From positions 21,625 through 85,624 of IMG/VR virus record IMGVR_UViG_3300030376_007431: a DNA stretch of 64,000 bases. One strand, given 5' to 3'. Below, in pieces: positions 28,304 to 58,654 of the stretch (the first letter of the stretch is position 1; each line of letters begins with the position of its first letter). A program made the translations under genes and the position numbers. Origin of the DNA: a virus (Duplodnaviria; Caudoviricetes). The notes under the pieces are model-generated. The model made no database searches. It was not told the origin of the DNA and worked only from the letters and a program-made list of their open reading frames with translations.

Positions 28304-29971
28304 ATGAGAAGAAAAAAAATACTAATCTGCACCGAAGCCCACTGGCTACCCACCGGCTACTCCGTGTATACCAAAGAAGTTTTAGGTAGACTTAGCAGAA
28401 ACCCTAATTTTGAAATAGCTGAGTTAGCCTGCTATGTCACACAAGAAGAGGCTGATGGCCAAAACGTACCTTGGAAAATTATAGCTAATCAACCACTAAA
28501 AAATGGTCCGGAGTGGGAAGTATATAAATCAAGTCCTTCTAGTGAATTCGGGGAGTTCAAGTTTAACGAAACTTTGATTGACTTTATGCCAGATTTTGTT
28601 ATGGATATAAGAGACTGGTGGATGTTGGAGTTCGTTGGTCGTACGCTTTTCCGAGATTTCTTTCAATGGGCAATAATGCCGGCTGTTGACGCTCGCCCTC
28701 AAAACAAACAATGGGTAGATACGTACTCATCCGCAGATGCAGTATTTGCATATTCTGAGTTTGGTAGGGATGTATTGCTAGGGCAGTCGGATGGAATGAA
28801 TTTTATAGATGTCGCATCACCTTGCGCAAGTCCTGTTTTTCATCCACCGGAAAGCAAAAGTGAACACAAGAAGCTTGGAGGTATAGATCCAGATTCTTTC
28901 GTTATAGGTACGGTAATGAGAAACCAAAGGAGAAAGCTCTACCCAGACTTATTTGAAGTATTCGCAAACTTCTTAGATGCAACCAAAGCAAACAACGCCT
29001 ACTTATATTGCCACACCGCTTATCCAGATTTAGGCTGGGAAATACCGCAACTTCTTCATGAATACGGTATCGGAGACAGGGTATTATTTACATACAGATG
29101 TAAAAAATGTGGCACAATTACTCCAAAGCTATTCAGTGACGTAATATCTCACTGTTCTCACTGCGGAAGTTACGAATCTCAGATGATTGGAATAAATAAC
29201 AAAGCAACTGAAGAGGATCTAGCGGAAGTCTATAGGCTATTCGATGTCTATATTCAGTATGCTAATAGCGAAGGTTTTGGGATGCCTCAACTAGAGGCGA
29301 CCAGTACTGGATTACCCTTGATAACGGTTGATTATTCAGCAATGGAGTCGGTGGGAAATAAGATTGGTGCATTCAAAGTTCCTGTCATGAAACTACACAC
29401 CGAGTGTGAAACTGGATGCTTACGAGCTATACCAGACAATGATGCAGCAATGTTGTATCTCATGAAACTTTATTCGCTTGGGAATGAGGCTGTGGTTGAT
29501 TCCGGCGAAAGAATGAGACAGGCAACGTTAGAAAACTATAGCTGGGATACGACGGCACAGAAGTGGGGTGACTATTTTGACAGAACTCCCGTGCTTGACC
29601 TGAAGAAAACATGGCTTTCTCCGCCAAGAATGTTTAACCCAGCTAAGGAAATACCTGCGAATTTAACAACAATCAAAGATCAAGTTGACTTTTTGTTTGC
29701 TAATGTTCTTGGGCGCCCAGAGTGGATAGGAAATTATTTTTGGAAGAGAACAGTTAGAGACCTCACATACAAGAGTACAATGGCCAGCACTGCTGTTGAC
29801 TTTCATTTTAGTGAATCTCATACTGGCTCTCATGATGTAAGAGCTTGGAGTCGCTTTACTTTGCAAGATGCACATGAGAGTTTTATTAAGGCGGCAGAAG
29901 TAAACAATCAATGGGAACGCTATCGCCTAGAAAAAGTTGAAGCTATAATGTCTGGAGGAGTCAGCAGATAA
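28304..29971 (+). CDS. GT4 family glycosyltransferase with an inserted zinc ribbon
   Basis: TGYSVY, VMRNQRRK, YANSEGFGMPQLEA. CKKC..CSHC insertion. Confidence 0.88.
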   Translation: MRRKKILICTEAHWLPTGYSVYTKEVLGRLSRNPNFEIAELACYVTQEEADGQNVPWKIIANQPLKNGPEWEVYKSSPSSEFGEFKFNETLIDFMPDFVMDIRDWWMLEFVGRTLFRDFFQWAIMPAVDARPQNKQWVDTYSSADAVFAYSEFGRDVLLGQSDGMNFIDVASPCASPVFHPPESKSEHKKLGGIDPDSFVIGTVMRNQRRKLYPDLFEVFANFLDATKANNAYLYCHTAYPDLGWEIPQLLHEYGIGDRVLFTYRCKKCGTITPKLFSDVISHCSHCGSYESQMIGINNKATEEDLAEVYRLFDVYIQYANSEGFGMPQLEATSTGLPLITVDYSAMESVGNKIGAFKVPVMKLHTECETGCLRAIPDNDAAMLYLMKLYSLGNEAVVDSGERMRQATLENYSWDTTAQKWGDYFDRTPVLDLKKTWLSPPRMFNPAKEIPANLTTIKDQVDFLFANVLGRPEWIGNYFWKRTVRDLTYKSTMASTAVDFHFSESHTGSHDVRAWSRFTLQDAHESFIKAAEVNNQWERYRLEKVEAIMSGGVSR

Positions 29972-31083
29972 TGAAGGTATTATATATAGGAAATTACAAT
30001 GACCAGACCGGCTGGGGTGATGCAGCATTAAATAATATATTAGCCCTAGATTCCGCAGGCGTAGATGTTGTACCTAGATCTATTTCTTTTAATAATTCTC
30101 ATATTGCGAATGAACTAAGAATCAAACAGCTAGAACTTAATAGCACAAAAGGGTGCGATATATGTATTCAGCATACACTACCTAACCTTTATTCTTATCA
30201 TGAGGGTTTAAAAAATATAGGCGTATTCTATACCGAAACTCTAACTTTCACTGAGAGTATGTGGCACAAACATATAAACCTATTAGATGAAGTGTGGGTA
30301 GCTAATAGCCAAATGGCGGAGGCGTGTCAAAAAAGTTTGGTCAACATTCCAGTGAGTATTGCTCCACTATCTTTAGATATCGCAGATTACGGAGATAGAT
30401 ATAAAGATTGCGCGACTATGGATAACATCGAGTCCACATTTAATTTTTGCTTTGTTGGAGAGATGATACACAGAAAAAACATTGAAGGCTTGCTCAGAGC
30501 ATTCCATACAGAGTTTCACCCGTCTGAACCTGTTAATCTCTTCCTAAAAGTAACAAAGTCAGGATACAATTCACAAGACACACTATCTTATTTTGAAGCA
30601 ATGGCGGCCAACGTAAAAAGAAACTTAAAGATAAGAGACAATTATAAAGAGGAAGTAGTTGTTTCCGGACATTTAGAAAAAAGACACCTAAAGTCGCTTA
30701 TGGCAAAATGCAACTGTTTTGTTATGCCTAGTTTTGGAGAAGCTTGGTGCATACCTGCCTTAGAAGCCATGGCTTTGGCTATGCCTGTCATATACACTAA
30801 GGGGACTGGCATGGATGATTTTTGTTACGGTTGGAGCGTTGACTCTAGACCTTCACCATGCTATGGAGCTACTGACTCTCTTGGTGGCCTCTACACATCA
30901 AAGACTAAATGGGTAGAGCCTGATATTGAGTCGCTAGCTTCGTGCATGAGGGTCGCATTTGAGACGTATAAAAATTCACCTCAGAAATATAGCGAGATGC
31001 AGCAGAACGCAAGAAGCCGCGCTGTGAAATACGACCGCCTATCTATAGGTAGAAAATTAAAGGAGTTACTGCAAAATGGCTAA
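29971..31083 (+). CDS. GT4 family glycosyltransferase
   Basis: RKNIEGLLRAF and PSFGEAWCIPALEAMA. Confidence 0.9.
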   Translation: MKVLYIGNYNDQTGWGDAALNNILALDSAGVDVVPRSISFNNSHIANELRIKQLELNSTKGCDICIQHTLPNLYSYHEGLKNIGVFYTETLTFTESMWHKHINLLDEVWVANSQMAEACQKSLVNIPVSIAPLSLDIADYGDRYKDCATMDNIESTFNFCFVGEMIHRKNIEGLLRAFHTEFHPSEPVNLFLKVTKSGYNSQDTLSYFEAMAANVKRNLKIRDNYKEEVVVSGHLEKRHLKSLMAKCNCFVMPSFGEAWCIPALEAMALAMPVIYTKGTGMDDFCYGWSVDSRPSPCYGATDSLGGLYTSKTKWVEPDIESLASCMRVAFETYKNSPQKYSEMQQNARSRAVKYDRLSIGRKLKELLQNG

Positions 31084-32107
31084 TGCTACACAGCAATCCA
31101 TAAGGTCTATAATTAGAAGATCTCAACTGACACCTCAGCAAAAGTTAAACATCTTGACGTTTTGCACACATGAAAGATACGAGCAGAACCTATGCAAGAC
31201 AGGTCATAATTTCTATGCTATCAACCAAGGCAAGACTTGGAATAAAGATTTTGGAGTCATACCAGACAATTACCATGAAATAGATGTATTACCTTGGCAC
31301 GTTGGGTTTGACTTAGTATTATGCCACACTAGCTGTGATAGGTTAATAACAGCCAAAAAAATCCAGAACATGTATAATATACCTATAATCCGGCATACTC
31401 ATGTGCTGCCAGATGTAAGGCTTGATGTACAGAACCAAATACATTCATTCAATAGCATTGAGGTTGATCACAATAGTTTTATATCCAATTACAATAGATC
31501 TGCGTGGGGATATGGCCACGAAAATACGTCCTTCATAGAGCATGGGATTGACTATAAGTTTTGGTCTGATAATTCCAATGACGAAAAAGAAAGGGAGAAT
31601 GTCTGTATCTCGGTCGTTAACCAGTGGCCAAATAGAGATTGGTGCTGCGGGTGGAATTTATGGAAAGAAACAGTAGGATTTTCGGAAGAGACCATGCAGG
31701 CATCGCTGCCAATAAAGGTTCTTGGCGATAGTCCCGGACTATCCGAAGCCGCCCCTAGTATAGAATCCCTGAGAGGCTCATATAGGGCTTCTTCTGTTTT
31801 CCTTAATACTTCTCTCCATTCACCAGTACCTACCGTCCTGATGGAAGCTATGGCTTCTGGATGCGCTATAGTAAGCACTAACAACTGCATGATTCCAGAA
31901 ATAATCCAGCATGGTGAGAACGGTCTGCTTGCGGATACCGCAGATGAGCTACGCGCATCTTGCCAGTATCTGCTTAACAATCCAGACGAATCGAGAAGAC
32001 TGGGCCAAAATGCACAAGACACAATAAAAGAAAAATACAATCTAGAAAGATTCGTACATAACTGGAATGAGTTATTTTTCGGAACAATAGATAATTATAG
32101 GAAATAA
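31076..32107 (+). CDS. GT4 family glycosyltransferase
   Basis: NTSLHSPVPTVLMEAMASGC and IIQHGENG. Confidence 0.9.
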   Translation: MANATQQSIRSIIRRSQLTPQQKLNILTFCTHERYEQNLCKTGHNFYAINQGKTWNKDFGVIPDNYHEIDVLPWHVGFDLVLCHTSCDRLITAKKIQNMYNIPIIRHTHVLPDVRLDVQNQIHSFNSIEVDHNSFISNYNRSAWGYGHENTSFIEHGIDYKFWSDNSNDEKERENVCISVVNQWPNRDWCCGWNLWKETVGFSEETMQASLPIKVLGDSPGLSEAAPSIESLRGSYRASSVFLNTSLHSPVPTVLMEAMASGCAIVSTNNCMIPEIIQHGENGLLADTADELRASCQYLLNNPDESRRLGQNAQDTIKEKYNLERFVHNWNELFFGTIDNYRK

Positions 32108-32109
32108 TA

Positions 32110-32532
32110 ATGAGAATCATACTATCCAACACAGAGCCAAGTTTAAAAAACTATACTTGGATTAAAGACATTTCTTCTTTAGATGAAGTTGTTGATGACG
32201 CTGAAGCCACTGAGATTATAGTTGATAATTTTTTATCTTCTTTTAACTTCTCATTTGCTGGTGAGGCTCTCAAGAAAATACTATCTAAACTAAGAACTAG
32301 AGGGACTATTACAGTTTACGTTAAAGATATTTCTTTAATCTGCCATAATGTGGCGTCAGTTGCTTTAGATATATCTGATATAAACACACTATTCTTTGAG
32401 GATAGTCAGGCTATAGCTTCTGTTCTTAATTTGTCTAATGTAGACGATATTCTAACTCAGTGTGGATTAACAGTTAAAGAAAAACATCTAAATATTGAAA
32501 CATGCCAAGGCATTATTGTAGCAGCGAGGTAA
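32110..32532 (+). CDS. Degenerate methyltransferase-fold protein
   Basis: EIIVDNFL..LKKILSKLRTRGTITVYVKD resembles the C-terminal half of type-11 MTases, but the GxG SAM motif is missing. Confidence 0.4.
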   Translation: MRIILSNTEPSLKNYTWIKDISSLDEVVDDAEATEIIVDNFLSSFNFSFAGEALKKILSKLRTRGTITVYVKDISLICHNVASVALDISDINTLFFEDSQAIASVLNLSNVDDILTQCGLTVKEKHLNIETCQGIIVAAR

Positions 32533-32536
32533 AACT

Positions 32537-33385
32537 ATGGAAGATCTAAAAGAGCAAGCATGCAACCAAATCGAGATGAGATGCAAAGGCTGTGTGTTCA
32601 TCACCAATATAGAACAAGAGGCGTCAACCAAACAAATCGGATGTCGGCTAGGAAGATCGGACGTGTTGTGTCCAGACTCGACTGGGGAAACAGACGAAGA
32701 TGGAAATTTTAGCTTTGTATTTGATAGATTCTGCAACTGCTATAGACCAAAGGCTTGGGCAGATAGACTAAGCGCAGATGTTATACAGGAAGAGGAAGTA
32801 CTAGAAGAGGTTGTCCCACGAGTTGGTCTGTTCCTAATCTTTGACAAATCATTTAAGGAGCAAGGAATCGCCAAACTGTTAGAGACCATCGGAGACGTAA
32901 AATCACAAACATTATCTAAATTTAGATATGTTGTTGTGCTTAATCCTGACGTGGCATACAATCAAGAAATACAGGAAATTTTAGCTGATAGTTTTGACTT
33001 TGAACAAACTGAGTACCACTTAATCCAAGTATTGTCAGATGATGTTGAGCCGTATCATCTGGATGACGCTATTGGGTTTGCGAAAAATGGCTGGGTCTTA
33101 GTTACTACTATAGGTCAGAATATTCCTCATGATTTCATTGAGAAAATGAATAATAGAATAAATAGAGATCTTCTCCGTACAGCAATTATTAAGCCGTATG
33201 ACGGACTAAATGGTCTGGTATTCCAGTCCAGCCTGTATAAATTTTTAGATGGCAATAAAAGAGTGATCCACTCAGAAACAGGAGAAGAAATTCCGTTCAG
33301 TTTTCTTGATCGTGTTAATGGCATGGAACAGAGTGACGACAATATCGTATCCAAATGGGAGGACTTTGTAAATGACCCTTCCTAA
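32537..33385 (+). CDS. Hypothetical protein with an N-terminal Cys cluster and a possible GT-A-like domain
   Basis: CKGC..GC..FCNC followed by alpha/beta segments. Lies inside the GT cluster. Confidence 0.45.
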   Translation: MEDLKEQACNQIEMRCKGCVFITNIEQEASTKQIGCRLGRSDVLCPDSTGETDEDGNFSFVFDRFCNCYRPKAWADRLSADVIQEEEVLEEVVPRVGLFLIFDKSFKEQGIAKLLETIGDVKSQTLSKFRYVVVLNPDVAYNQEIQEILADSFDFEQTEYHLIQVLSDDVEPYHLDDAIGFAKNGWVLVTTIGQNIPHDFIEKMNNRINRDLLRTAIIKPYDGLNGLVFQSSLYKFLDGNKRVIHSETGEEIPFSFLDRVNGMEQSDDNIVSKWEDFVNDPS

Positions 33386-34187
33386 TGTGGCAATTATAAT
33401 TAGTAACTATAACTACGGAGACTATGTTTTAGATGCTATATCAAGCGCTTTGAAGCAAGACTATGAAGGTCAGATGCGAATTTATGTAGTAGACGATGGC
33501 TCTTCTGATGGATCTTACCAGAAGCTATTAGACTACGCAGGGGAAGACATATCCTGCATAACGGACGCTTATCAGAAGACAGAACCATATTATAATGGCG
33601 AGATGAGGTCATTTCAGTGCAGCGACCTGAACCTGTGGTGTTACCATATAGAAAATTCAGGCGCGAGTACAGCCAGAAATGTTGGCATATGGGAAGCTTG
33701 GGAATGGGCAGACATCTTTGCTATTCTTGACGCGGATGACACTTATCGAAGTGACAAGGTTCGTAAACAAGTTGCGAAACTCACAAAGCATAAAGAGGTG
33801 GGAGTAACGTATTCAGACTATATAATCCATAAAACCTATAACGGCAATGACTACTCTAAATACGAGTACAAGTATCCTTACTCTAGAAAAGAGCTTGACA
33901 ACCAATGTATAGTTCATAGCGCAGGGCTTATTAAGAAAGAGTATTTGGAGATGATAATGTTGTCAAATCAAGAGTTTTATGACAGTAGACTGCACGGGCC
34001 GGGAAGCAAAGCATTCATAGGATGTACCGAAGATTACGACCTATGGTTAAGATTAGCCAAACACTGTATTATAACACACATACCCGAGCCTCTTTCCTTT
34101 GTTCGTGAGACTGGCCAAAACCAATCTATGAAAATGACAGCCGATATATTTCAAGAAAACGCTAAAATTTTGAGGCAAAATGTCTAG
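33372..34187 (+). CDS. GT2 family glycosyltransferase
   Basis: IISNYNY, VVDDGSSD, ARNVG, LDADD and EDYDLWLR. Confidence 0.92.
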   Translation: MTLPNVAIIISNYNYGDYVLDAISSALKQDYEGQMRIYVVDDGSSDGSYQKLLDYAGEDISCITDAYQKTEPYYNGEMRSFQCSDLNLWCYHIENSGASTARNVGIWEAWEWADIFAILDADDTYRSDKVRKQVAKLTKHKEVGVTYSDYIIHKTYNGNDYSKYEYKYPYSRKELDNQCIVHSAGLIKKEYLEMIMLSNQEFYDSRLHGPGSKAFIGCTEDYDLWLRLAKHCIITHIPEPLSFVRETGQNQSMKMTADIFQENAKILRQNV

Positions 34188-34890
34188 ATTTATTCATAAA
34201 ATAAAAGGCACTCCGAGATCATCTCCGGTGGCTATACTTTCCGCAGGGATAGGTTCAAGAATAAAATCTCACGAACCTAGAGCCTTACTTAAGGTTGGAA
34301 ATAAATTACTTTTAGAGCACCAAATAGAGGTAATCAACAAGGCATTTCCTCAACCGGATGTAATTGTGGGTGTAGGATACGAGCCTTGGAAGATAATGAA
34401 AAGAGTATCGGAGTCTGCGAGATTTGTCGAGAATCAATTATATGAGACATCTGGTAGTTTTGAAACCCTTAGACTTATAGTCAACAATACCAAAGAAGAC
34501 AACATTATCTTTTTTCACGGGGATCTATACTTCAAACAGCAATTTTTTCAAAGCTTTGACTATTCAAAATCATTTGTTGTATGTGATAATACAAACAATA
34601 TGTCGGACAAAGAAGTTGGAGTTACTGAGAATAGACAAAAAGCTACAATATTTTCTTATGGACTTGAGAATAAATGGTGCCAAATTGCCTTTTTAAAAAA
34701 CAAGGAGATGACCATACTTCGTCAAATATGCCAGAAACCAAGTCAAGAAATGAAGTCGCTATTGACTTTTGAGATTCTTAATGCTATAATTAACAAAGGA
34801 GGCGTTTTCAATATACACTACGCTCCGGAAAACTCAATATTGGAAATTGATTCCATGAAGGATTTGAATAATGAAAATTTTAATTTCTAG
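34180..34890 (+). CDS. Nucleotidyltransferase (LicC/choline-phosphate cytidylyltransferase-like)
   Basis: ILSAGIGSR..PRALL, HGDL and EIDSMKD. Confidence 0.8.
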   Translation: MSRFIHKIKGTPRSSPVAILSAGIGSRIKSHEPRALLKVGNKLLLEHQIEVINKAFPQPDVIVGVGYEPWKIMKRVSESARFVENQLYETSGSFETLRLIVNNTKEDNIIFFHGDLYFKQQFFQSFDYSKSFVVCDNTNNMSDKEVGVTENRQKATIFSYGLENKWCQIAFLKNKEMTILRQICQKPSQEMKSLLTFEILNAIINKGGVFNIHYAPENSILEIDSMKDLNNENFNF

Positions 34891-35914
34891 CGACGGTATG
34901 CATGCCCATTATTTTCAAAGGGCTGCATGGCTAAAAGGTTTTAACGAAGCCGGTATACAAACGCTACTATGGGACTGCAAGACGACGCCAGCTTTTGATG
35001 TGTTTGATACCTTTGAACCAGATGTGTTTTTGGGGCAAACCTATAACCTAAATAAACCTCTACTTAAATGCATCTATGAAAGGCCACATTTAAAGATAGG
35101 TCTTAGATCGGGAGATTGGGGAGACTTCGCACCTGACCCAAGATTCAATGTCCTCCATGCATCAGAGCAAGATATAAGAATACTTGAAAAGCTTAAGCAA
35201 GAGACGGGCAAGCCTGATTTTGTACATATTCATTATGCTCAAGATGCTGTAGACCAAACGCACTCTTCATACAAAAACATTGGAATAGAAGCCAAATCTA
35301 TTATAATGTGTGCAGATGTTCATGAGTATTCTGGATCATCTTATGATGAATCATTAGCCTGCGACATAGGTTTTGTTGGTGGATATTGGCCCCATAAGGG
35401 TATCATAATTGACAAGTATCTCACCCCGATGTGTCACCCTGTAGGTAAATATAACATTAAGATTTTTGGCAACCAACCTTGGCATGTCAACCAATACTGT
35501 GGATTCATAAAGGACAACAAAGTAAAAGATCTTTTCAAGTCCGCAAAGGTGTCTCCTAATCTGAGCGAGCCCCATGCACATGAATACGGTTTTGATATTA
35601 ATGAGAGATGTTTTAAAATATTGTGTGCGGGTGGATTCTGTGTGGCTGATAATGTAACAGCAATAAAGAAAATCTTTAATGGAAATGGTGTTGTTTTTGC
35701 AGAGTCACCCGATGACTTTACCAGCAAGATAGATCATTATATAAATAATCCCGAAGAAAGAAACGAGCTCGCTTCTCAAGGTCAGAAATTTGTTCTGTCA
35801 AATCATACAAACTTTCACAGGGTTTCGGAGATACTGAAGCTCTTTGGTTTTGAAGTAGAGGCTGCGAAAATTTTGAACAGATGGGACGATATTAGGAAGA
35901 CAGCTAATGTATAA
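34871..35914 (+). CDS. GT-B glycosyltransferase (CgeB/Glyco_trans_1_2-like)
   Basis: DIGFVGG, SPNL..DINERCFKIL..GGFCVAD and HTNFHRV. Confidence 0.8.
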   Translation: MKILISSDGMHAHYFQRAAWLKGFNEAGIQTLLWDCKTTPAFDVFDTFEPDVFLGQTYNLNKPLLKCIYERPHLKIGLRSGDWGDFAPDPRFNVLHASEQDIRILEKLKQETGKPDFVHIHYAQDAVDQTHSSYKNIGIEAKSIIMCADVHEYSGSSYDESLACDIGFVGGYWPHKGIIIDKYLTPMCHPVGKYNIKIFGNQPWHVNQYCGFIKDNKVKDLFKSAKVSPNLSEPHAHEYGFDINERCFKILCAGGFCVADNVTAIKKIFNGNGVVFAESPDDFTSKIDHYINNPEERNELASQGQKFVLSNHTNFHRVSEILKLFGFEVEAAKILNRWDDIRKTANV

Positions 35915-38552: not shown

Positions 38553-38558
38553 ATTAAA

Positions 38559-39377: not shown

Positions 39378-39381
39378 CTAT

Positions 39382-40146: not shown

Positions 40147-41026
40147 GTTGAGAATTAAATTTGATAACTTTTGGGGTGGGTTTCCCCTGTATGACAATAT
40201 AATAACAGTAGCTCTAAGTCTAAAACACGATGTAGAGATTGTTCAGCATGACCCAGATATTTTAGTGCATCAAGGCCAAACTTCCCACAAGCATGATGGC
40301 GCAATTACAATAGCTTGGTTTATAGAGTCTATGAATAGAATAGGGGAACCTGACTATAGTAAATGTGACTATTCTTTTAACAGTTGTAATCTTGATGATG
40401 AGAGAAACTATAGGATTCCCTTTTGGTCTACACAAATAAACTGGAATGGGGCTCCTGCGCATGACCTTAATCGAGGACCAACATACTATATATCAATAGA
40501 CGAGTTATCTAATAGGCAGATAGCTAATAGAGACAGGTTGTGTTGCTCAGTAGCGTCTGGAACGCTTGGTAGGAGAGCAGAGTTTTATCCTTACATATCC
40601 TCAAGAATGGATGTAGCACATGGAGGAGACTTCCTAAGAAATACAACAGAGATGATTGAAAAGCCGGGAAACAGTGACTACTTAGAGAAGATAGAGTTTA
40701 TTTCTAAATTTAAATCGAACCTATGTTTTGAGAACGATGACAGACAAGGATACGTATGTGAGAAGATACTACATGCTTTTTATGCTGGTTGTCTGCCCAT
40801 ATACTGGGGACCAGCAAATGTAGGTGAAGACTTCAACAAGAAAGCGTTTATTGATGTTAGTGATTTTGAGTCTAGCGAAGAGGCTGTTAATTATATACAC
40901 GATGTGCTTTTAAACGATACAAAATTATTAGAATATCTAGAGCAACCAGTATTTGAAAATGGACAGGTGCCATATCACTCAACACCGGAGTCACTATTAG
41001 AGTTCTTAGAGAAAAAGGGTATATAA
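40136..41026 (+). CDS. GT10 alpha-1,3/4-fucosyltransferase
   Basis: KFKSNLCFENDDRQGYVCEKILHAFYAGCLPIYWG is the GT10 signature. Confidence 0.93.
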   Translation: MTSKLRIKFDNFWGGFPLYDNIITVALSLKHDVEIVQHDPDILVHQGQTSHKHDGAITIAWFIESMNRIGEPDYSKCDYSFNSCNLDDERNYRIPFWSTQINWNGAPAHDLNRGPTYYISIDELSNRQIANRDRLCCSVASGTLGRRAEFYPYISSRMDVAHGGDFLRNTTEMIEKPGNSDYLEKIEFISKFKSNLCFENDDRQGYVCEKILHAFYAGCLPIYWGPANVGEDFNKKAFIDVSDFESSEEAVNYIHDVLLNDTKLLEYLEQPVFENGQVPYHSTPESLLEFLEKKGI

Positions 41027-41601
41027 TGGCTGGAGAATTTTCTTACAACCGCAAAAAGTATTTCTTTCTTCATATCCCGAAGACTGGCGGTAAGATGTGG
41101 GAGCATGTATTTAGCGGTATTGGGCTGACTTCTGGACATGGTTTCGTAGAATCTAAACCAGAAGGATATTCATTTACTGTAATAAGAAACCCATTTGATA
41201 GATTGGTCAGCTGTTTCTATTACCTCAAGGCTGGCGGGTGCTGGTCGGGTGACGCAAATGATGCGTTAAAGTATGATATTACAAACAATACTTTTGAAGA
41301 CTGGCTCAAGCTAGCTAGCAAAAACCCTCAGCACTATCTAGAACAGCAACACGTTATGCCTATGATGCGTAGAATTGGCAAAAAAGAAAACTTCGACCAT
41401 ATTGGATTATTTGAAGATTTAGAACAGGAAACCAGAGATCTATACTCTATTATATATGGCCATAAAATTGATGAAGTGCCTGTGATTAACAAAAGCGCCC
41501 ATCGCCACTTTGAAGATTGTTACACCGAAGAAACAAAAGCTATAGTTTCAGAACTATACAAGGATGATATAAAACTATATGAGGAGCTATTAAATGCATA
41601 A
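41026..41601 (+). CDS. Carbohydrate sulfotransferase (Sulfotransfer_2-like)
   Basis: 5'-PSB FLHIPKTGG and 3'-PB IRNPFDRLVS. Confidence 0.88.
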   Translation: MAGEFSYNRKKYFFLHIPKTGGKMWEHVFSGIGLTSGHGFVESKPEGYSFTVIRNPFDRLVSCFYYLKAGGCWSGDANDALKYDITNNTFEDWLKLASKNPQHYLEQQHVMPMMRRIGKKENFDHIGLFEDLEQETRDLYSIIYGHKIDEVPVINKSAHRHFEDCYTEETKAIVSELYKDDIKLYEELLNA

Positions 41602-42001
41602 GATATATAAAGACGAGAAGCTTTACCACTGCTACTTCAACGCTGACGAGTACCAAGAGGGTAGGTTTGATGCTACCGACGCTGGAGAATATTTGCAGTG
41701 CGCTATTATAAATATGGATGACGGCAAGAAGTTTGATCCGCATGTCCATATCCCTTGTGAAAGAACAACTGACACAACTCAAGAGGCTTGGGTTGTGCTT
41801 AAGGGCAAGATAAAAATAACATATTATGACGAAGATAAAAATCAAATGGACGAGCCGGCTATAGTTTCTGCCGGAGGGTGTACTATAAGTTTTTGGGGTG
41901 GTCATAAATATGAATGTCTAGAAGACGGAACTGTAGTCTATGAATTTAAGACTGGCCCGTACTTTGGCAAAGATGCTGATAAGGTAGTGTTTGATGCGTA
42001 A
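41594..42001 (+). CDS. WbuC-like cupin-fold protein
   Basis: PHVH..TQEAWVVLKG..GGHKYECLE..YEFKTGPY. Confidence 0.75.
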   Translation: MHKIYKDEKLYHCYFNADEYQEGRFDATDAGEYLQCAIINMDDGKKFDPHVHIPCERTTDTTQEAWVVLKGKIKITYYDEDKNQMDEPAIVSAGGCTISFWGGHKYECLEDGTVVYEFKTGPYFGKDADKVVFDA

Positions 42002-42617
42002 TATTGTGCAATATAGTCTGCCTCGAACAGGTTCTACACTTATCCGTAGAGTGTTATATAGTCTGTTCCCTGAAAGCGAAGCCCCTTCACAGCATCCTCC
42101 GCTCCATTATAACTCCCGTGACGCTTTGATTGTGAGCTCATGCAGGTATCCACTGGATGTTTTGGTATCGTATGCTAGAGTACACCACTGTGAACAAGGT
42201 TATGAACTCGGTGGGATTGATGAGGATTTACTTGCACATCATGCAAAAAGGATAAAAACACTATATCAATGGTATTTTAAAGACTTAGACCATTGTAGGG
42301 GCGGCATTCTACAAATCAAATATGAAAAATTTTGGAACAACTATGATTATATTTTCGATAATCTTGAGACCTTTCTTTCAATAGAGATTGATGATAATAA
42401 AAGACATGATATAGCACAAGAATGTGGAATAGAAAACTCCAGAAAGATACAAGCAGAATTGGAGGACTTTGGCTGTGTTGATGAAAAGACATCCCTGCAC
42501 GGCAACCATATAGTTGCGCCAGAGCCATTTGGCTACAAAAAAGTTTTAACACGCACACAAACAGCTTCTATGAAAATGTTTTTAAAGGACGCTATTAAAG
42601 AATGGGAAAAAATATGA
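41991..42617 (+). CDS. Sulfotransferase (P-loop, Sulfotransfer_1/3-like)
   Basis: YSLPRTGSTL, RYPLDVLVS and IKYEKF. Confidence 0.78.
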   Translation: MMRNIVQYSLPRTGSTLIRRVLYSLFPESEAPSQHPPLHYNSRDALIVSSCRYPLDVLVSYARVHHCEQGYELGGIDEDLLAHHAKRIKTLYQWYFKDLDHCRGGILQIKYEKFWNNYDYIFDNLETFLSIEIDDNKRHDIAQECGIENSRKIQAELEDFGCVDEKTSLHGNHIVAPEPFGYKKVLTRTQTASMKMFLKDAIKEWEKI

Positions 42618-43165
42618 AGCTTCACTTAGGATGTGGATGGAGAAATTTTGGAGATGATTGGATTCATATTGATGGTGGTGATTATGAACACTTAGACCAC
42701 AATGATATTACGAAGCTCCCCTATGAAGATGAAACAGTCGATTTAATATATGCCTCTCATGTGTTGGAGTACTTCGACAGAGAAGAAGCTATTAATGTTC
42801 TTACCGAATGGGCGAGAGTATTGAAAAAAGGTGGAGTCTTAAGAATAGCTGTGCCAGATTTTGAGTGCATGGCTATTATGTATGTAATGGGAAAGAATAC
42901 TCTTAATAAGACAAAATTAAGCAGTTTTCTCGGCCCACTTTACGGTAAGATGCAGATGAGCGATAAGATCATTTATCATAAAACAGCGTATGATTTTCAA
43001 GAGTTGTCAGAGCTTTTATCATCTGTAGGTATACAAAACATTGCTAGATATGACTGGAGAGATACGGAGCATCGTGACTTCGATGACCACTCTCAAGCCT
43101 ATATCCCGCATATGGATAAAGACAATGGAACACTAATTAGTTTGAATATAGAGGGAACAAAATGA
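42614..43165 (+). CDS. Class I SAM-dependent methyltransferase (type 11)
   Basis: MKLHLGCG, DLIYASHVLEY and LKKGGVLRIAVPD. Confidence 0.88.
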   Translation: MKLHLGCGWRNFGDDWIHIDGGDYEHLDHNDITKLPYEDETVDLIYASHVLEYFDREEAINVLTEWARVLKKGGVLRIAVPDFECMAIMYVMGKNTLNKTKLSSFLGPLYGKMQMSDKIIYHKTAYDFQELSELLSSVGIQNIARYDWRDTEHRDFDDHSQAYIPHMDKDNGTLISLNIEGTK

Positions 43166-43746
43166 GATTAGAGAAATGGGAAGGCGTACATATAGATACG
43201 GTTTATAATGATGTAGTTACTAAGATAGCGCCTAAAGGCAAGGTTCTAGGCGTTGGAGATAGTGCATTTCCTCATGCTGTTCTAAACATGCAATATTTTC
43301 ATGACAATCCAGTAGAAGAAGGCGTTGCGGTTAATACTAACGAAAAGGATTTAGGACATCTAAATGGGTTTGATGTTATACTATGTAACGGCAATGATAT
43401 CTGCTATGAAGACAATTACTTTGACTTTGTATATACTGTGATGATGCTTGAGCATGATCCTAAGTTCTGGCTGTCAGTACAAGAGATGCATAGAGTTTTG
43501 AAGCCCGGATGCCCTTTAATGATAGCTATTCCCGGATTTGTAGGAGAGCCAGAGTACGCTGTTGTAGACAATAGAGACCATTGGGGACATGGCACTAGTT
43601 GTTATGAGAACCATACCGACTGTGACTGCTATAGATTTAGCCCCGATTTCTTTAAGTTTTTCGCGCTCAAAGACTTCGATGATGCTGTCGTGTATCACAG
43701 CATGTTTCCTCCAAGACTTATAGGAGTCGGATACAAGCCAAAATGA
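43162..43746 (+). CDS. Class I SAM-dependent methyltransferase (type 11)
   Basis: FDFVYTVMMLEHD..MHRVLKPG. Confidence 0.82.
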   Translation: MRLEKWEGVHIDTVYNDVVTKIAPKGKVLGVGDSAFPHAVLNMQYFHDNPVEEGVAVNTNEKDLGHLNGFDVILCNGNDICYEDNYFDFVYTVMMLEHDPKFWLSVQEMHRVLKPGCPLMIAIPGFVGEPEYAVVDNRDHWGHGTSCYENHTDCDCYRFSPDFFKFFALKDFDDAVVYHSMFPPRLIGVGYKPK

Positions 43747-45101
43747 ACATACCACTAAATATTAGTCTAAAAAATTTGCAACCTCCCCGTTACTACGGAC
43801 AGGGTGGGACTGATTCAATCGTAAGTCAGTTTTTTGAACGTAAAAATGTAAAAAATGGGACCTTCTTAGATGTTGGTTCTTTAGATGGAAAGCGTTTTAG
43901 TAATACGTATCTTCTTGAAAAGGCAGGCTGGAAAGGTGTTTGTGTAGAGATGCATCCATCATATGCTTTCCTACTCAGACACAATAGACCAAACTCAATC
44001 TGTTATTCATGTGGAGTCTCTGACGAAGATAAAGTAGAAAAAACTGTTTCTCTTAACTGGAGGGGTTCCCTTAGTACTACTGACCTTGAGCTAGAAAGTC
44101 ATTTTGAGGAAGACTACGAACTTTGGTACGGAGATAGGTCGAAAAGTCAAATCAATGGGTTTTTGAATGGTTTACATAAAGTAAAGCTGCGTACTCTTAA
44201 TAGTATTATAGATGATAATATTGAAAGTTTTCCGCATTTTGATTTTGTTTCTATCGACATTGATGGATCTGAAAAGAAGGCACTTCAGCATTGTAATCTC
44301 GATAAGATTAATCCAACGTTGTTATCTTTGGAATGGTCGGTAGTAGGAGAAGAATACATTATTGAATATGCAAAACAATACAATATGATACCGGCGCGTA
44401 AAGTCGGAGCCGACATGTTATTCACAAGATCTCAAGAAGATGCTGATATTATTAATTCCTTAGAGTTTATTGGTCGCCAGACTAAGTATGCACACCCATG
44501 TACTCATAATATTAATAACTACATGGTTCCTATGCTCGAAGAGTCGGTAGCGAGATTTTTTGGATCTAAACATGCTGTTGCTGTTGACTGCTGTACTCAT
44601 GGTTTGGAATTGTGTCTACGACATCAAAATATAGAAAAAATAACAATACCGGCTAGAACATATCTTTCAGTGCCTTTTCTTGCTACCAAGCTAGGACTAG
44701 AATGGGAGTGGAGGGAAGAAAACTGGAAGGATTATTATCAGTTAGGAGACACTAACATCTATGACTCTGCCGTACTATGGAAAAAAGACAGCTATATGCC
44801 CGGAACATTTATGTGCTTAAGCTTTCAGTTTCAAAAACATTTGAGTTTGGGTCGCGGTGGAATGATCTTGACCGACGACACAGAGGCTGCATATAAACTG
44901 AAAAAGATGTCGCACGACGGAAGAGAGCCAAGAGTGCCTTGGAGAGAACAAGACATTGACACGATTGGGTATCATTATTACATGACGCCAGAAACTGCAG
45001 CTTTAGGTTTAGAAAAACTACCTAAAGCAATTGACACACCACCTAGACAGTGGGTTATTGAAGACTGGCCTGACCTGAGAAACATGGAGATTTTTAAATG
45101 A
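43743..45101 (+). CDS. Fusion of an FkbM-family methyltransferase and a truncated DegT/DnrJ PLP aminotransferase
   Basis: N-terminal half FLDVGSLDG..SNT..VEMHP..SIDIDGSE. C-terminal half AVAVDCCTHGL..SFQFQKHL..GRGGMI. Confidence 0.85.
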   Translation: MNIPLNISLKNLQPPRYYGQGGTDSIVSQFFERKNVKNGTFLDVGSLDGKRFSNTYLLEKAGWKGVCVEMHPSYAFLLRHNRPNSICYSCGVSDEDKVEKTVSLNWRGSLSTTDLELESHFEEDYELWYGDRSKSQINGFLNGLHKVKLRTLNSIIDDNIESFPHFDFVSIDIDGSEKKALQHCNLDKINPTLLSLEWSVVGEEYIIEYAKQYNMIPARKVGADMLFTRSQEDADIINSLEFIGRQTKYAHPCTHNINNYMVPMLEESVARFFGSKHAVAVDCCTHGLELCLRHQNIEKITIPARTYLSVPFLATKLGLEWEWREENWKDYYQLGDTNIYDSAVLWKKDSYMPGTFMCLSFQFQKHLSLGRGGMILTDDTEAAYKLKKMSHDGREPRVPWREQDIDTIGYHYYMTPETAALGLEKLPKAIDTPPRQWVIEDWPDLRNMEIFK

Positions 45102-46072
45102 GAAAAGTAGCACTAATAACTGGTATTTCTGGTCAAGACGGAAGTTATCTTGCAGAACACCTCTTAAAGCAAGATTACAAAGTTTATGGAATCATCCGTA
45201 GGCAATCTGTTGCGGAGAACCAAGAGTCAAGAATAGATCATATTATAGATCACGTCGAAACTCGTTATGGAGATCTAATGGACTGGTGTTCGCTAGAGCG
45301 CGTTGTTAAAGAGTCTAATCCTACGCATATCTTTAATCTAGGAGCGATGAGCCACGTTAGAGTTAGTTCTGACGTACCATCCTTTACTATTAAAACTAAT
45401 GCAGAGGGTGTCCTCAATCTATTAGAAGTCTATAAAAACTATTGCCCCACAGCTAAATTTTATCAGGCAAGCTCGTCCGAGATGTTTGGGAACAGCGTTG
45501 ATGACGACGGGTTCCAAAGAGAGACAACTCCAATGACTCCTGTTAGCCCTTATGGGTGCTCGAAGCTTATGGGATACTCTTTGGTTAGGCATTATAGACA
45601 CGCTTACAAACTACATGCTTCCAATGGTATATTATTTAATCATGAATCCCCGCGAAGAGGATCTAACTTTGTAACAAATAAAGTTGTTAAAACCGCTGTG
45701 GAAATCTCTTTAGGTATGAGAGACAAGTTGTTTTTAGGCAACATGGACTCCTATAGAGACTGGGGACACTCCAAGGACTACACAAGAGCAATGATTGACA
45801 TTATTAACCATGACACTCCTGATGACTTTGTTGTTGCTACTGGAGAAACTCATTCAGTCAGACAGTTATGTGAAGTAGTATTCGGTTGTTTGAACATGGA
45901 TTATAAGGACTATGTAGAACAAGACCCTAGATTCATGCGTCCAGAAGAATTAAAATACTTGAAAGGCGATCCAACGAAAACAAGAGAGACTTTTGGATGG
46001 GAGCCAGAGTACACCTTCCAGTCTATGATGGAAGAGATGGTCAGGCATTGGCAAAATTTCTATAGTAAATAA
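45098..46072 (+). CDS. gmd: GDP-mannose 4,6-dehydratase
   Basis: ALITGISGQDGSYL, FYQASSSEMFG, SPYGCSK, NHESPRRG and RDWGH. Confidence 0.97.
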   Translation: MRKVALITGISGQDGSYLAEHLLKQDYKVYGIIRRQSVAENQESRIDHIIDHVETRYGDLMDWCSLERVVKESNPTHIFNLGAMSHVRVSSDVPSFTIKTNAEGVLNLLEVYKNYCPTAKFYQASSSEMFGNSVDDDGFQRETTPMTPVSPYGCSKLMGYSLVRHYRHAYKLHASNGILFNHESPRRGSNFVTNKVVKTAVEISLGMRDKLFLGNMDSYRDWGHSKDYTRAMIDIINHDTPDDFVVATGETHSVRQLCEVVFGCLNMDYKDYVEQDPRFMRPEELKYLKGDPTKTRETFGWEPEYTFQSMMEEMVRHWQNFYSK

Positions 46073-46073
46073 A

Positions 46074-46769
46074 ATGTATAAAACCTATGTAATGCACTAT
46101 AGCCCTCTCTGTGAAAGGAGAGGGTTTATTCTCGATCAACTATCTTCTGCAGGAATTAGTCAATTTGAACTAGTCACAGAATTCGATAGAGAAGATTTGA
46201 CACATGAAGATCTTTCTAGATATAATGATGACCCAGACTTTCATCGTCAGGTGTGTGAAATATCAAGACAGCCACACGGCTTTGCTGGACTGACACCATA
46301 CACATATCAGAAGATGACATTAGCGTCAATATCTTTAAATCTAAAACACTTAGAGTCTTTCAATAGGTTCACTAATCAAGAAGTAGAATTTGCATTATTT
46401 TTAGAAGATGACTGTAATTTTTGTGGGCATCCTTTCGATATAAATACTATAATTAATAGCGCGCCGGATGATTGGGATGTTATATTATTAGGCGGAGCTT
46501 TTGATCATGGGATCATAACTCCTCTAGCAGTATATGGTGACATGGATAAAGGTTATATATTAAGCTCACACCCTGCCACTAATACTACGTCGTCAATAAT
46601 CTACAATAAGCAAAGTGCTAAAAAGATAATTCCGTATCTGGAAACCTTTTGCGTGCCTATTGATTGGCAGTTAAACTACGCTTTTCACAAAACCGAATTA
46701 AAAGTATATCATATATATCCTTATATATGTGGTCAGGGTACATTTAGGAGTACAGCAAAAGATGAATAA
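46074..46769 (+). CDS. GT25-like glycosyltransferase
   Basis: YVMHY..ERR, HL..F..ALFLEDD and PIDWQL. Confidence 0.75.
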   Translation: MYKTYVMHYSPLCERRGFILDQLSSAGISQFELVTEFDREDLTHEDLSRYNDDPDFHRQVCEISRQPHGFAGLTPYTYQKMTLASISLNLKHLESFNRFTNQEVEFALFLEDDCNFCGHPFDINTIINSAPDDWDVILLGGAFDHGIITPLAVYGDMDKGYILSSHPATNTTSSIIYNKQSAKKIIPYLETFCVPIDWQLNYAFHKTELKVYHIYPYICGQGTFRSTAKDE

Positions 46770-47232
46770 ACAAAAAAAACTGGCAGTTCTGACAGAGGAC
46801 TTGGGTCTCTCGCAAAGGTCTTTTTATCTTATAGATAGTCTCAATAACTTTTCTAGAAACAGAACAGCTGCAGTTACTTGCTATACAACATCAGTGATCC
46901 CGCCGGTCATGAAGGCTCTTTTTCCTTTTATGAATCAATACTACTTCTCCTCTTTTAATGGAACAGCTATAGCCACTAGTATAGACACAGCTAAGGCGCT
47001 GATTAAAACAAAGAACAACACTAAAAGATTTCTTTACTTGTGGGATTTAGAATGGATTAGAAACCCGGTCGATTTTGATGACACCTGTTCGGTATTGAGG
47101 AATCCAGATATTAATATAATTACTAGAAGTGAATCTCACAAAAAGATGGTTGAAAACTACGCAAACACCGAGGTATGCGGAATAGTTGATGACTGGAACA
47201 CAACACAATTGGAGGAACTGATATGGATTTAG
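46762..47232 (+). CDS. Hypothetical protein resembling the N-terminal half of a GT-B enzyme
   Basis: IATSIDTA..FLYLWDLEW. Likely start is ATG 46762. Confidence 0.45.
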   Translation: MNKQKKLAVLTEDLGLSQRSFYLIDSLNNFSRNRTAAVTCYTTSVIPPVMKALFPFMNQYYFSSFNGTAIATSIDTAKALIKTKNNTKRFLYLWDLEWIRNPVDFDDTCSVLRNPDINIITRSESHKKMVENYANTEVCGIVDDWNTTQLEELIWI

Positions 47233-49095: not shown

Positions 49096-49114
49096 GGGTG
49101 CTCCGGTTAAGGCG

Positions 49115-55173: not shown

Positions 55174-55174
55174 T

Positions 55175-58642: not shown

Positions 58643-58654
58643 ATCATTCTCCTA

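What the first reader, a model, noticed from the sequence alone, without database searches (positions are those of the whole stretch)
28304..47232. 19-kb phage cluster that could build a fucosylated, sulfated, methylated glycan, with no export machinery
Seen: three GT4s, GT2, GT10, GT25-like, GT32, two GT47-like, a CgeB-like GT, Gmd + Fcl, a nucleotidyltransferase, a cupin, two sulfotransferases, three or more MTases and a DegT domain. I saw no multi-TM flippase, polymerase or undecaprenyl-phosphate priming transferase. Established: Gmd + Fcl convert GDP-mannose to GDP-L-fucose, the donor for GT10. PAPS-dependent sulfotransferases add sulfate. Inference: soluble enzymes without export fit cytoplasmic glycosylation of virion proteins, as in chloroviruses. 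Planctomycetes specialise in taking up sulfated fucose polysaccharides, so a fucoidan-like virion coat could act as bait or camouflage for adsorption. The alternative is remodelling of the host surface.
Basis: partly seen in the sequence, partly recalled or inferred. Interest (0 to 1): 0.82.

Follow-up and report, generated by a model that had tools for sequence, protein, structure and literature searches.

The report
Marine phage sugar-coat gene island
An abundant uncultured ocean phage spends about an eighth of its genome on 23 soluble enzymes that could build a fucose-containing, methylated and sulfated sugar chain inside the infected cell, most likely to coat its own particle, but no measurement yet shows what the chain is attached to.

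Summary
Window 28304-47232 is one run of 23 abutting + strand genes. I count at least 12 glycosyltransferases, two of them newly assigned from predicted folds. The run also holds Gmd, Fcl, a nucleotidyltransferase, a WbuC cupin, two sulfotransferases with intact PAPS motifs, three methyltransferases and a short DegT-like domain. No cluster protein has a transmembrane helix. Two (near-)complete relatives of about 150 kb have no flippase, polymerase or priming transferase.

New here:
- The inner ten genes follow DnaE-SSB-sigma in 53 of 53 relatives.
- The outer arm (GT32, GT47-like, GT10, sulfo- and methyltransferases, Gmd) is swapped between phages and is missing from a complete relative.
- All cluster genes are under strong purifying selection.
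- A second Gmd sits in the head operon, next to the protease, terminase, portal and capsid genes.

This favours glycosylation of phage particle proteins in the cytoplasm (about 0.5). Remodelling of the host surface through host carriers and exporters is not excluded (about 0.3). The fucoidan bait idea has no support.

This scan found the same island before on related DNA (e1-6062649, e1-6008348). Comparable clusters are published for cyanophages and pelagiphages. I rate it a new variant of a known kind.

The parts
27821..28300 (+). Sigma-70 region 2 factor directly upstream (context; precedes the island in relatives)
   Evidence: Pfam Sigma70_r2 E 6e-11. Found in 36 related loci.
28304..29971 (+). 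GT4a: 555-aa GT-B glycosyltransferase with an inserted CxxC..CxxC zinc ribbon and a conserved C-terminal extension. First gene of the inner core.
   Evidence: Glycos_transf_1 E 3.6e-8. Invariant C266/C269/C284/C287. PDB profile hits to BshA, Gtf1 and chlorovirus B736L. Present in 53/53 relatives. 1789 metagenome homologues on contigs of at most 155 kb.
29971..31083 (+). GT4b glycosyltransferase (inner core)
   Evidence: Glycos_transf_1 E 9e-14. dN/dS 0.02.
31076..32107 (+). GT4c glycosyltransferase (inner core)
   Evidence: Glycos_transf_1 E 5e-16.
32110..32532 (+). 140-aa conserved protein, function unassigned (inner core)
   Evidence: No Pfam, NCBIfam or PHROG match. Orthologues in 44 loci. 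dN/dS 0.03.
32537..33385 (+). GT-A fold glycosyltransferase with a Cys-rich N-terminal 90 aa (inner core)
   Evidence: In the AF2 model residues 92-282 are confident. Foldseek top hit is SpsA, E 1e-6, prob 1.0. Invariant C16/C19/C36/C66.
33372..34187 (+). GT2 glycosyltransferase (inner core)
   Evidence: Glycos_transf_2 E 6e-18.
34180..34890 (+). Sugar-1-phosphate nucleotidyltransferase, donor not identified (inner core)
   Evidence: NTP_transf_3 E 9e-9. GlmU N-domain-like matches, E 3e-9.
34871..35914 (+). CgeB-like GT-B glycosyltransferase (inner core)
   Evidence: Glyco_trans_1_2 E 3e-24.
35907..36866 (+). Fcl, GDP-L-fucose synthase (inner core)
   Evidence: phmmer to E. coli GDP-fucose synthetase 1bsv, E 3e-67, full length.
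36838..37749 (+). GT-A fold glycosyltransferase of a virus-wide family (last inner-core gene)
   Evidence: AF2 pLDDT 85. Foldseek hits B4GALNT1, GnT-I, SpsA and TarP, prob 1.0. Invariant D88-D89. Its Atlas cluster has 1278 members, mostly viral.
37707..38552 (+). GT32-type DXD glycosyltransferase (outer arm; variable)
   Evidence: Gly_transf_sug E 1e-14. Absent from G002 and G003.
38559..39377 (+). GT47/RXYLT1-like GT-B protein a (outer arm)
   Evidence: RXYLT1_C E 3e-5, below cut-off.
39382..40146 (+). GT47/RXYLT1-like GT-B protein b (outer arm)
   Evidence: RXYLT1_C E 4.6e-8, 33.1 bits against a cut-off of 27.
40136..41026 (+). GT10 alpha-1,3-fucosyltransferase-like (outer arm)
   Evidence: Glyco_transf_10 E 1.5e-13 plus FucT_N. 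H. pylori FucT 2nzw E 7e-21. 99.9% nt identity to relative G001.
41026..41601 (+). Sulfotransferase (Sulfotransfer_2)
   Evidence: E 2e-13. HIPKTGG and RNPFDRLVS PAPS motifs read.
41594..42001 (+). WbuC-family cupin
   Evidence: TIGR04366 E 7.5e-11, 42 bits, equal to the cut-off.
41991..42617 (+). Sulfotransferase (Sulfotransfer_3/1-like)
   Evidence: E 1.6e-6. LPRTGST and RYPLDVLVS motifs. Absent from G002.
42602..43165 (+). Class I SAM methyltransferase a
   Evidence: Methyltransf_11 E 5e-11.
43162..43746 (+). Class I SAM methyltransferase b
   Evidence: Methyltransf_11 E 2.5e-8.
43743..45101 (+). FkbM methyltransferase fused to a short (~200 aa) DegT/perosamine-synthase-like domain
   Evidence: Methyltransf_21 E 2e-11 and DegT E 1.5e-18. 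Nearest solved structure is 3bn1, with the Lys aligned. The same short DegT stands alone in G002.
45098..46072 (+). Gmd, GDP-mannose 4,6-dehydratase (copy 1)
   Evidence: GDP_Man_Dehyd E 5e-109. Best cellular relative is only 52% identical.
46074..46769 (+). GT25-like glycosyltransferase
   Evidence: phrog_2835 glucosyltransferase E 2.6e-9. Pfam GT25 only E 0.0077.
46729..47232 (+). 167-aa conserved protein, unassigned; last gene of the island
   Evidence: No family match. Orthologues in G001-G003.
47223..47993 (+). Homing-endonuclease-like ORF marking the end of the glycan genes
   Evidence: phrog_559/9084 HNH or homing endonuclease, E 3e-14.
49114..49143 (+). 13-bp-stem hairpin where the + strand unit meets the - strand structural genes
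   Evidence: Terminator-like scan.

Best explanation
The island is a phage-autonomous glycan factory that works in the cytoplasm. Its product most likely ends up covalently attached to proteins of the phage particle (head, decoration or fibre proteins) and leaves the cell with the virion at lysis.

Proposed steps:
1. Donors. Host GDP-mannose is converted by Gmd and then Fcl to GDP-L-fucose. The family assignments are shown; the activity is inferred. The nucleotidyltransferase activates a second sugar that I could not identify. The WbuC cupin and the short perosamine-synthase-like domain may tailor a 6-deoxy sugar (weak).
2. Inner core. Seven GTs that every relative keeps build a conserved core that includes fucose or a related 6-deoxyhexose. 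They are GT4a, GT4b, GT4c, the Cys-rich GT-A, GT2, the CgeB-like GT and the second GT-A.
3. Outer arm. GT32, two GT47-like proteins, the GT10 alpha-1,3-fucosyltransferase and the GT25-like protein extend the core.
4. Decoration. Two PAPS-dependent sulfotransferases and three SAM methyltransferases modify the chain. They would use host PAPS, because no phage APS kinase was found.
5. Variation. The outer arm is exchanged between related phages, giving strain-specific glycan types.

The acceptor and the biological role (shielding, stability, adhesion) are inferred, not shown.
For: Enzyme assignments.

All proteins are soluble.

No priming GT, flippase, polymerase or WecA in G000-G003, including the 94%-complete G002 and the complete G003.

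The inner core behaves like a core phage function, not an accessory island:
- GT4a sits behind DnaE-C/SSB/sigma in 53/53 relatives.
- At least 8 of 9 further core genes are present in 33/38 relatives, down to 42-50% DnaE identity.
- Its divergence tracks that of DnaE.

Strong purifying selection acts on every gene: dN/dS 0.02-0.27, against 0.03 for DnaE.

A second full-length Gmd (E 3e-120) lies in the head operon, in the order sigma2, unk271, Gmd2, ERCC4, ClpP, TerL, portal, MCP. This order is syntenic in G001, G002 and G003, which ties 6-deoxyhexose supply to particle morphogenesis.

The island converges on the tail-fibre and structural module.

The genes are old phage-lineage genes, not recent host copies. 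The best cellular Gmd is 52% identical. GT10 is at most 38% identical in 10/301 Planctomycetota genomes. GT4a homologues occur only on virus-sized contigs.

Precedents from established knowledge and papers: giant-virus fibril glycosylation clusters of 6-33 genes (PMC10117803), and mycobacteriophage capsid and tail glycosylation (Freeman 2023, as cited in PMC12619734).
Against: - No acceptor has been identified.
- The MCP has no Ser/Thr-rich C-terminal tail like the glycosylated mycobacteriophage capsids.
- The Ser/Thr-rich ORFs next to the MCP in G001 and G003 are missing from G002, which keeps the island.
- The main island is co-oriented with the replication genes, not inside the structural operon.
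- Soluble GTs without an exporter are also normal for lipid-linked O-antigen assembly when the host supplies the membrane steps.
- The transmembrane prediction was a crude hydropathy scan.
- Our own contig is only about 55% complete.
Confidence: 0.5

Rival explanations
1. Remodelling of the host surface. The soluble phage GTs build a new glycan on a host-primed undecaprenyl-phosphate carrier. A host ABC transporter or Wzx, with the host ligase, puts it on LPS or capsule. The new surface would block superinfection or stop progeny being lost on debris. Methyl or sulfate caps could act as chain terminators, as in ABC-dependent O-antigen pathways.
For: - The gene families (GT4, GT2, GT25, GT10, Gmd/Fcl, WbuC cupin, DegT-like, FkbM) are typical of O-antigen clusters.
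- Published marine myophage clusters with up to 13 GTs and no exporter are read this way (PMC12801897; PMC7029224).
- The outer arm is mosaic like a serotype locus.
- The island is transcribed with early/middle-type replication genes.
Against: - The phage family has no priming or membrane component at all. Known seroconverting phages use membrane proteins.
- The inner core is universal and co-diverges with the replisome, unlike the variable accessory islands of cyanophages.
- Gmd2 sits in the head operon.
- The genes are not host-like.
- No experiment supports the host-surface reading for any lytic phage cluster in the papers I read.
Confidence: 0.3
2. Another cytoplasmic product. This could be a free or lipid-anchored oligosaccharide, glycosylation of a host or non-structural phage protein (takeover or anti-defence), or a glycosylated small molecule.
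For: - All enzymes are soluble and no acceptor is known.
- GT32 shares the DXD region with TcdA/TcdB-type protein glucosyltransferases (E 2.6e-10).
- GT4b gives a weak match to the conflict-system GT4 family (E 0.001).
Against: Twelve GTs plus sulfation and methylation is far more than any known takeover modification needs. The matches cited in favour are weak or generic. The link to the head operon is left unexplained.
Confidence: 0.12
3. Hypermodification of phage DNA with glycans, to escape restriction.
For: The island lies directly after replisome genes, and a dNMP kinase is nearby. Multi-GT DNA glycosylation is known in phages (Pyle 2024, as cited in PMC12619734).
Against: - G000-G003 have no ThyA-family hydroxymethylase and no C5 DNA methylase.
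- No TET/JBP was found, but the control for that search was silent, so this is inconclusive.
- As far as I know, fucosyl-, sulfo- and O-methyl-transferases and 12 GTs have no precedent on DNA.
Confidence: 0.03

Closest known systems
Megavirinae and chlorovirus autonomous glycosylation clusters (Notaro et al. 2022, PMC10117803; PBCV-1/NY-2A)
   Same: Both are virus-encoded nucleotide-sugar pathways plus many GTs, clustered in 6-33 genes. Their content is clade-specific. They act without the host's secretory or export route and coat the particle. GT4a gives a weak profile match to the chlorovirus GT B736L.
   Different: Those are eukaryotic giant viruses and their virion glycans have been measured. 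This is a 150-kb tailed phage with no chemistry. This island has a universal inner core plus a swappable arm, and it includes sulfotransferases.
Mycobacteriophage virion glycosylation (Che8, Corndog, Myrna; Freeman et al. 2023, known to me through citations in PMC12619734 and PMC12801897; the paper itself is not held)
   Same: In both, soluble phage GTs and methyltransferases would modify capsid or tail proteins in the cytoplasm.
   Different: The mycobacteriophages use 2-6 genes inside the structural operon, with acceptor tails at the C-termini of the capsid and tail tube. This island has 23 genes after the replisome, the MCP has no such tail, and only Gmd2 lies in the head operon.
Cyanomyovirus and pelagimyophage 'LPS / cell-wall synthesis and modification' clusters (S-SCSM2R, S-SCSM1, P-SSM2: PMC12801897; pelagimyophage host recognition cluster: PMC7029224)
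   Same: These are also marine tailed phages with up to 13 GTs (including GT10, GT25, GT2) plus NDP-sugar enzymes and no exporter. Their targets are likewise unknown.
   Different: Those clusters are hypervariable accessory islands in T4-like phages. They are read, without a test, as host O-chain modification, and no sulfotransferases are reported for them. Here the inner half is a universal, vertically inherited core of an unrelated DnaE-type phage family.
Bacillus subtilis spore-crust polysaccharide machinery (SpsA, CgeB and others)
   Same: Soluble GTs decorate a particle inside a mother cell that later lyses. The top fold hit of ORF 32537 is SpsA, and ORF 34871 belongs to the CgeB-type family.
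   Different: This is an analogy of logic only. SpsA is the generic GT-A archetype, so no specific kinship has been shown.

Membership tests
Wzx/Wzy- or ABC-transporter-dependent O-antigen/capsule locus | Initiating phosphoglycosyl transferase (WbaP/Bac_transf or WecA/MraY type) | tested here: not met
   PF02397 and PF00953 are absent from G000-G003, and the controls were positive.
Wzx/Wzy- or ABC-transporter-dependent O-antigen/capsule locus | Flippase or ABC exporter, and polymerase or ligase (multi-TM proteins) | tested here: not met
   PF01943 and PF04932 are absent. No ORF has 4 or more hydrophobic segments apart from the tape-measure-like giant. ABC2_membrane was not searched by HMM.
Seroconverting temperate-phage gtrABC/Oac systems | Membrane-embedded GtrA/GtrB/Gtr(type) or an acyltransferase | tested here: not met
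   The island and its relatives have no multi-TM protein.
Mycobacteriophage-type virion glycosylation | GT genes embedded in the structural operon | tested here: inconclusive
   The main island follows the replisome and converges on the structural module. Only Gmd2 is inside the head operon.
Mycobacteriophage-type virion glycosylation | Glycan on C-terminal extensions of the capsid and tail tube subunits | tested here: not met
   The MCP C-terminus of the near-identical relative has no Ser/Thr-rich extension. Glycan attachment itself cannot be tested with these tools.
Giant-virus-type autonomous glycosylation cluster | Virus-encoded nucleotide-sugar synthesis plus multiple GTs in one cluster, with clade-specific content | tested here: met
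   Gmd, Fcl and the NTase plus at least 12 GTs. The arm differs between G000/G001, G002 and G003.
Giant-virus-type autonomous glycosylation cluster | The product is found on the virion | not testable with these tools
   This needs purified particles.
Cyanophage/pelagiphage LPS-like accessory islands | Hypervariable, non-syntenic between relatives | tested here: inconclusive
   This is true of the outer arm: dS 0.006-0.35 against more than 1 for the backbone, with gene gain and loss. It is false for the inner core, which is present in 53/53 relatives.
Phage DNA glycosylation systems | An enzyme that makes a hydroxymethylated or otherwise activated base | tested here: not met
   No PF00303 and no PF00145. 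The PF12851 search had a silent control and is inconclusive.
GDP-L-fucose de novo pathway | Gmd and Fcl both present and full length | tested here: met
   Gmd E 5e-109. Fcl E 3e-67 over residues 5-311.
PAPS-dependent sulfotransferases | 5'-PSB and 3'-PB PAPS-binding motifs | tested here: met
   HIPKTGG / RNPFDRLVS and LPRTGST / RYPLDVLVS are present. The motif definitions come from my own knowledge.

The most novel reading that the evidence does not exclude
An abundant, globally distributed family of roughly 150-kb marine phages coats its virions with a heteroglycan. The glycan would have a conserved inner core made by genes as old as the phage's replisome, and a horizontally swapped outer arm that, in this subclade, adds alpha-1,3-fucose, O-methyl and sulfate groups. 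That would amount to a phage 'serotype' system, and the first sulfated glycoprotein coat known on a bacterial virus.
Probability: 0.35. Interest if true: 0.8.

Novelty: new variant of a known kind. Interest (0 to 1): 0.58.

Why it matters
Glycosylation of phage particles has so far been shown only in mycobacteriophages, which use a handful of genes. Large GT clusters in marine phages are routinely annotated as 'LPS modification', and that reading has never been tested.

This family offers a sharper case:
- The inner module is universal, strongly constrained and linked to the head operon.
- The outer module behaves like a serotype cassette and carries sulfotransferases.

If the product is on the virion, three things follow:
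- Phage surface glycans become a general and variable trait in the ocean, with effects on adsorption, aggregation to sulfated algal polysaccharide gels, grazing and decay.
- Marine virus particles become a source of sulfated, fucosylated organic matter.
- The GT and sulfotransferase set is soluble and compact, which would be useful for glyco-engineering.

Tried and rejected
- Cultured relatives: none. tblastn of DnaE-N, GT4a and ORF 36838 against 50,697 phage records gave only hits of at most 35% identity.
- PDB profile searches for ORFs 32537 and 36838 found nothing by sequence. The folds were needed.
- The PDB phmmer search for the cupin ORF returned only designed beta-propeller 'Cake' proteins, which I take to be spurious.
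- Sigma-70 promoter and terminator scans inside the island were at chance level.
- Expression: no RNA holder was listed among the public runs. I therefore did not use read laying, and I draw no conclusion on expression.
- Phage PAPS supply: the APS-kinase search gave only a sub-threshold P-loop hit in the UvsX-like gene.
- Host mimicry: GT10 is rare and distant in 301 Planctomycetota genomes, and Gmd is at most 52% identical to any cellular Gmd. I rejected recent host capture.
- Ser/Thr-rich ORFs next to the MCP as the universal acceptor: rejected, because G002 lacks them.
- Freeman 2023 (PMC10527164) is not held, so I know it only through citing papers.
- Literature searches for a description of this phage family, or for phage sulfotransferase plus fucosyltransferase clusters, found none. 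One search failed on term syntax.
- One incidental GT10 hit fell in an unpublished genome, G008. No claim in this report rests on it.

Full report
WHAT IS THERE

The window is the last 64 kb of a single 85.6-kb linear viral contig. The contig is not circular, and CheckV rates it about 55% complete.

Upstream of the finding lie RNR, a UvsX-like recombinase, DnaB, a primase, a dNMP kinase, an exonuclease, a split DnaE with a proofreading subunit, SSB and a sigma factor.

From 28304 to 47232 run 23 + strand ORFs that abut or overlap, with no gap above 6 nt. The + strand unit continues through a homing-endonuclease-like ORF and two small ORFs to a 13-bp-stem hairpin at 49114-49143. There it meets a - strand block that opens with three ORFs of 1424, 1155 and 1429 aa.

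ENZYME ASSIGNMENTS

The E-values are listed under the observation check.
- Fcl matches E. coli GDP-fucose synthetase over its full length (3e-67).
- Gmd scores 5e-109.
- GT10 matches the H. pylori alpha-1,3-fucosyltransferase (7e-21).
- Both sulfotransferases keep the two PAPS-binding motifs.
- The cupin is of the WbuC type, exactly at the curated cut-off.

Two ORFs with no sequence match (32537 and 36838) were folded from alignments of phage orthologues. Both have the GT-A glycosyltransferase fold with Foldseek probability 1.0; the top hits are SpsA, B4GALNT1, GnT-I and TarP. ORF 36838 keeps an invariant DD motif. ORF 32537 carries four invariant cysteines in an N-terminal extension. The island therefore encodes at least 12 GTs.

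The DegT part is a short form of about 200 aa, nearest to perosamine synthetase, with the PLP lysine aligned. It stands alone in relative G002, and in this phage it is fused to an FkbM methyltransferase.

ORFs 32110 and 46729 remain unassigned.

NO EXPORT MACHINERY

No island protein reaches the hydropathy threshold for a membrane helix (maximum 1.48 against 1.6).

I assembled three relatives from IMG/VR:
- G001: 93.8 kb, 82-87% nt identity. It overlaps our contig and runs 39 kb beyond its end.
- G002: 145 kb, 94% complete.
- G003: 153.7 kb with a roughly 1.1-kb terminal repeat, so complete.

None of the three, nor our contig, has a Bac_transf, WecA/MraY, Wzx or Wzy match, and the controls were positive. 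None has an ORF with four or more hydrophobic segments apart from the 2400-2800-aa tape-measure-like protein.

IT IS A TAILED PHAGE

Beyond our contig's end, G001 continues with more giant ORFs, a 2404-aa tape-measure-like protein, tail and head genes, the MCP, the portal and TerL. The island therefore sits between the replication module and the converging structural module.

WHAT IS NEW

(a) A universal inner core. GT4a follows DnaE-C, SSB and sigma in 53 of 53 related loci that have enough sequence. In 33 of 38 loci with 10 kb downstream, at least 8 of the 9 inner genes from GT4a to Fcl are found, down to 42-50% DnaE identity. The divergence of these genes tracks that of DnaE.

(b) A swappable outer arm, running from GT32 to the GT25-like gene.
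- The complete genome G003 lacks it at this locus.
- G002 lacks GT32, the second sulfotransferase and one methyltransferase. It carries a DUF6492 protein and a Methyltransf_24 instead.
- Sulfotransferase families are found in G000-G002 but not in G003 or G004.
- Between G000 and G001 the backbone has dS above 1, but the block from GT47b to MT11b has dS 0.006-0.35 and GT10 is 99.9% identical. This indicates recent recombination.

(c) Selection. All genes are under strong purifying selection, with dN/dS 0.02-0.27 against 0.03 for DnaE.

(d) A second Gmd in the head operon. A full-length Gmd (E 3e-120) lies in the order sigma2, unk271, Gmd2, ERCC4, ClpP, TerL, portal, MCP, syntenic in G001, G002 and G003. 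The family-wide set is therefore the inner core with Fcl, plus a Gmd that is co-located with the particle-assembly genes.

(e) Phage-lineage genes. The best cellular Gmd is 52% identical. GT10 has homologues of at most 38% identity in 10 of 301 Planctomycetota genomes. GT4a has 1789 metagenome homologues, all on contigs of at most 155 kb.

(f) Distribution. The arm is near-identical in marine metagenomes of at least 12 studies from 2014 to 2025.

HOW IT MOST LIKELY WORKS

Shown: the enzyme families, their solubility, the conservation pattern and the gene context.

Inferred: host GDP-mannose is turned into GDP-fucose. A conserved core oligosaccharide is assembled in the cytoplasm. The variable arm extends it and adds alpha-1,3-fucose, sulfate (from host PAPS; no APS kinase was found) and methyl groups. 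The acceptor is a phage particle protein.

I put this at about 0.5. A universal, replisome-old, strongly constrained module linked to the head operon looks like part of the virion programme, and the only measured precedents for virus-encoded clusters of this size are virion glycans (PMC10117803).

The main rival, at about 0.3, is assembly on a host-primed lipid carrier followed by host-mediated export to remodel the cell surface. Comparable cyanophage and pelagiphage clusters are read this way in print, without a test (PMC12801897, PMC7029224). The absence of exporters does not exclude this rival.

DNA hypermodification is unlikely. There is no ThyA-type hydroxymethylase and no C5 methylase.

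The fucoidan-like bait proposal has no support. There is one fucosyltransferase among 12 GTs. The sulfation and GT10 genes are a subclade cassette. The host was not tested here. Earlier notes of this scan argue for a planctomycete host from DUF1501 genes and the tmRNA tag. I confirmed only that the tmRNA, with tag VEENFALAA, is present in G000 and G002.

EARLIER WORK

This scan has already reported the same island on related DNA, with the same conclusion on a fixed inner half, a swapped outer half and an unknown acceptor (e1-6062649, e1-6008348, and several first-reader notes). I reached these points independently with my own calls.

This report adds the Gmd2 head-operon link, the dS mosaic, the two new GT-A assignments, and the family-wide negative tests for export and DNA-modification genes.

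I found no paper that describes this phage family or a phage cluster combining sulfotransferases, GT10 and Gmd/Fcl.

VERDICT

The island is real, well supported and biologically interesting. It is not categorically new. I rate it a new variant of the virus-encoded glycan clusters, and the key question, the acceptor, cannot be answered from sequence.

Noticed in passing
L100:8781-9851 (- strand; relative G001 88781-89851), outside our contig: A second full-length GDP-mannose 4,6-dehydratase sits in the head operon, between a second sigma factor and the ERCC4-ClpP-TerL-portal-MCP genes. The order is syntenic in G001, G002 and G003.
   Followed up: yes
window 40136-43746: The GT10-to-methyltransferase block is 92-99.9% nt identical to relative G001, while the backbone is 82-85% identical (dS 0.006-0.35 against more than 1). 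This is a recently exchanged cassette. GT4a (28304-29971) is also unusually similar (95%).
   Followed up: yes
window 50956-62944 (- strand): Three ORFs of 1424, 1155 and 1429 aa have no Pfam or PHROG match. They open the structural module and are probably fibre or baseplate proteins. They are 84-88% identical to G001 but barely recognisable in G002 and G003.
   Followed up: partly
L099:17919-19974 (G001) and G003 99218-112332: Non-homologous Ser/Thr-rich ORFs (S+T 0.19-0.33 against a genome mean of 0.13) are inserted right after the MCP gene in G001 and G003 but not in G002. They could be head fibres or decoration proteins and candidate glycan acceptors.
   Followed up: partly
window 47223-47993: A homing-endonuclease-like ORF (phrog_559, E 3e-14) sits at the distal edge of the glycan island. 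G003 has an HNH ORF at the equivalent edge (L101:896-1357). Both could promote cassette exchange.
   Followed up: partly
window 49114-49143: A strong 13-bp-stem hairpin lies at the convergence of the + strand replication/glycan unit and the - strand structural unit. It is probably a bidirectional terminator.
   Followed up: no
G000:C1:9591-10292 and 10285-10627 (before the window): A PAP2-family protein has no hydrophobic segment at all (maximum hydropathy 0.53). Its stop codon is overlapped by a tmRNA gene with tag VEENFALAA. The same tmRNA is present in G002.
   Followed up: partly
G002 122105-122698 (- strand): Relative G002 has a further Sulfotransfer_2 gene far from the island (E 7e-7).
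   Followed up: no
G003 60277-61921 and 85499-86413: The complete relative G003 lacks the outer arm. It carries a GT47-like plus methyltransferase pair, and another GT47-like gene just upstream of sigma2/Gmd2, so its glycan genes are scattered.
   Followed up: partly
window 50217-50633 (- strand): A small ORF carries a DUF6171 domain (E 9e-9) between the island and the giant ORFs.
   Followed up: no
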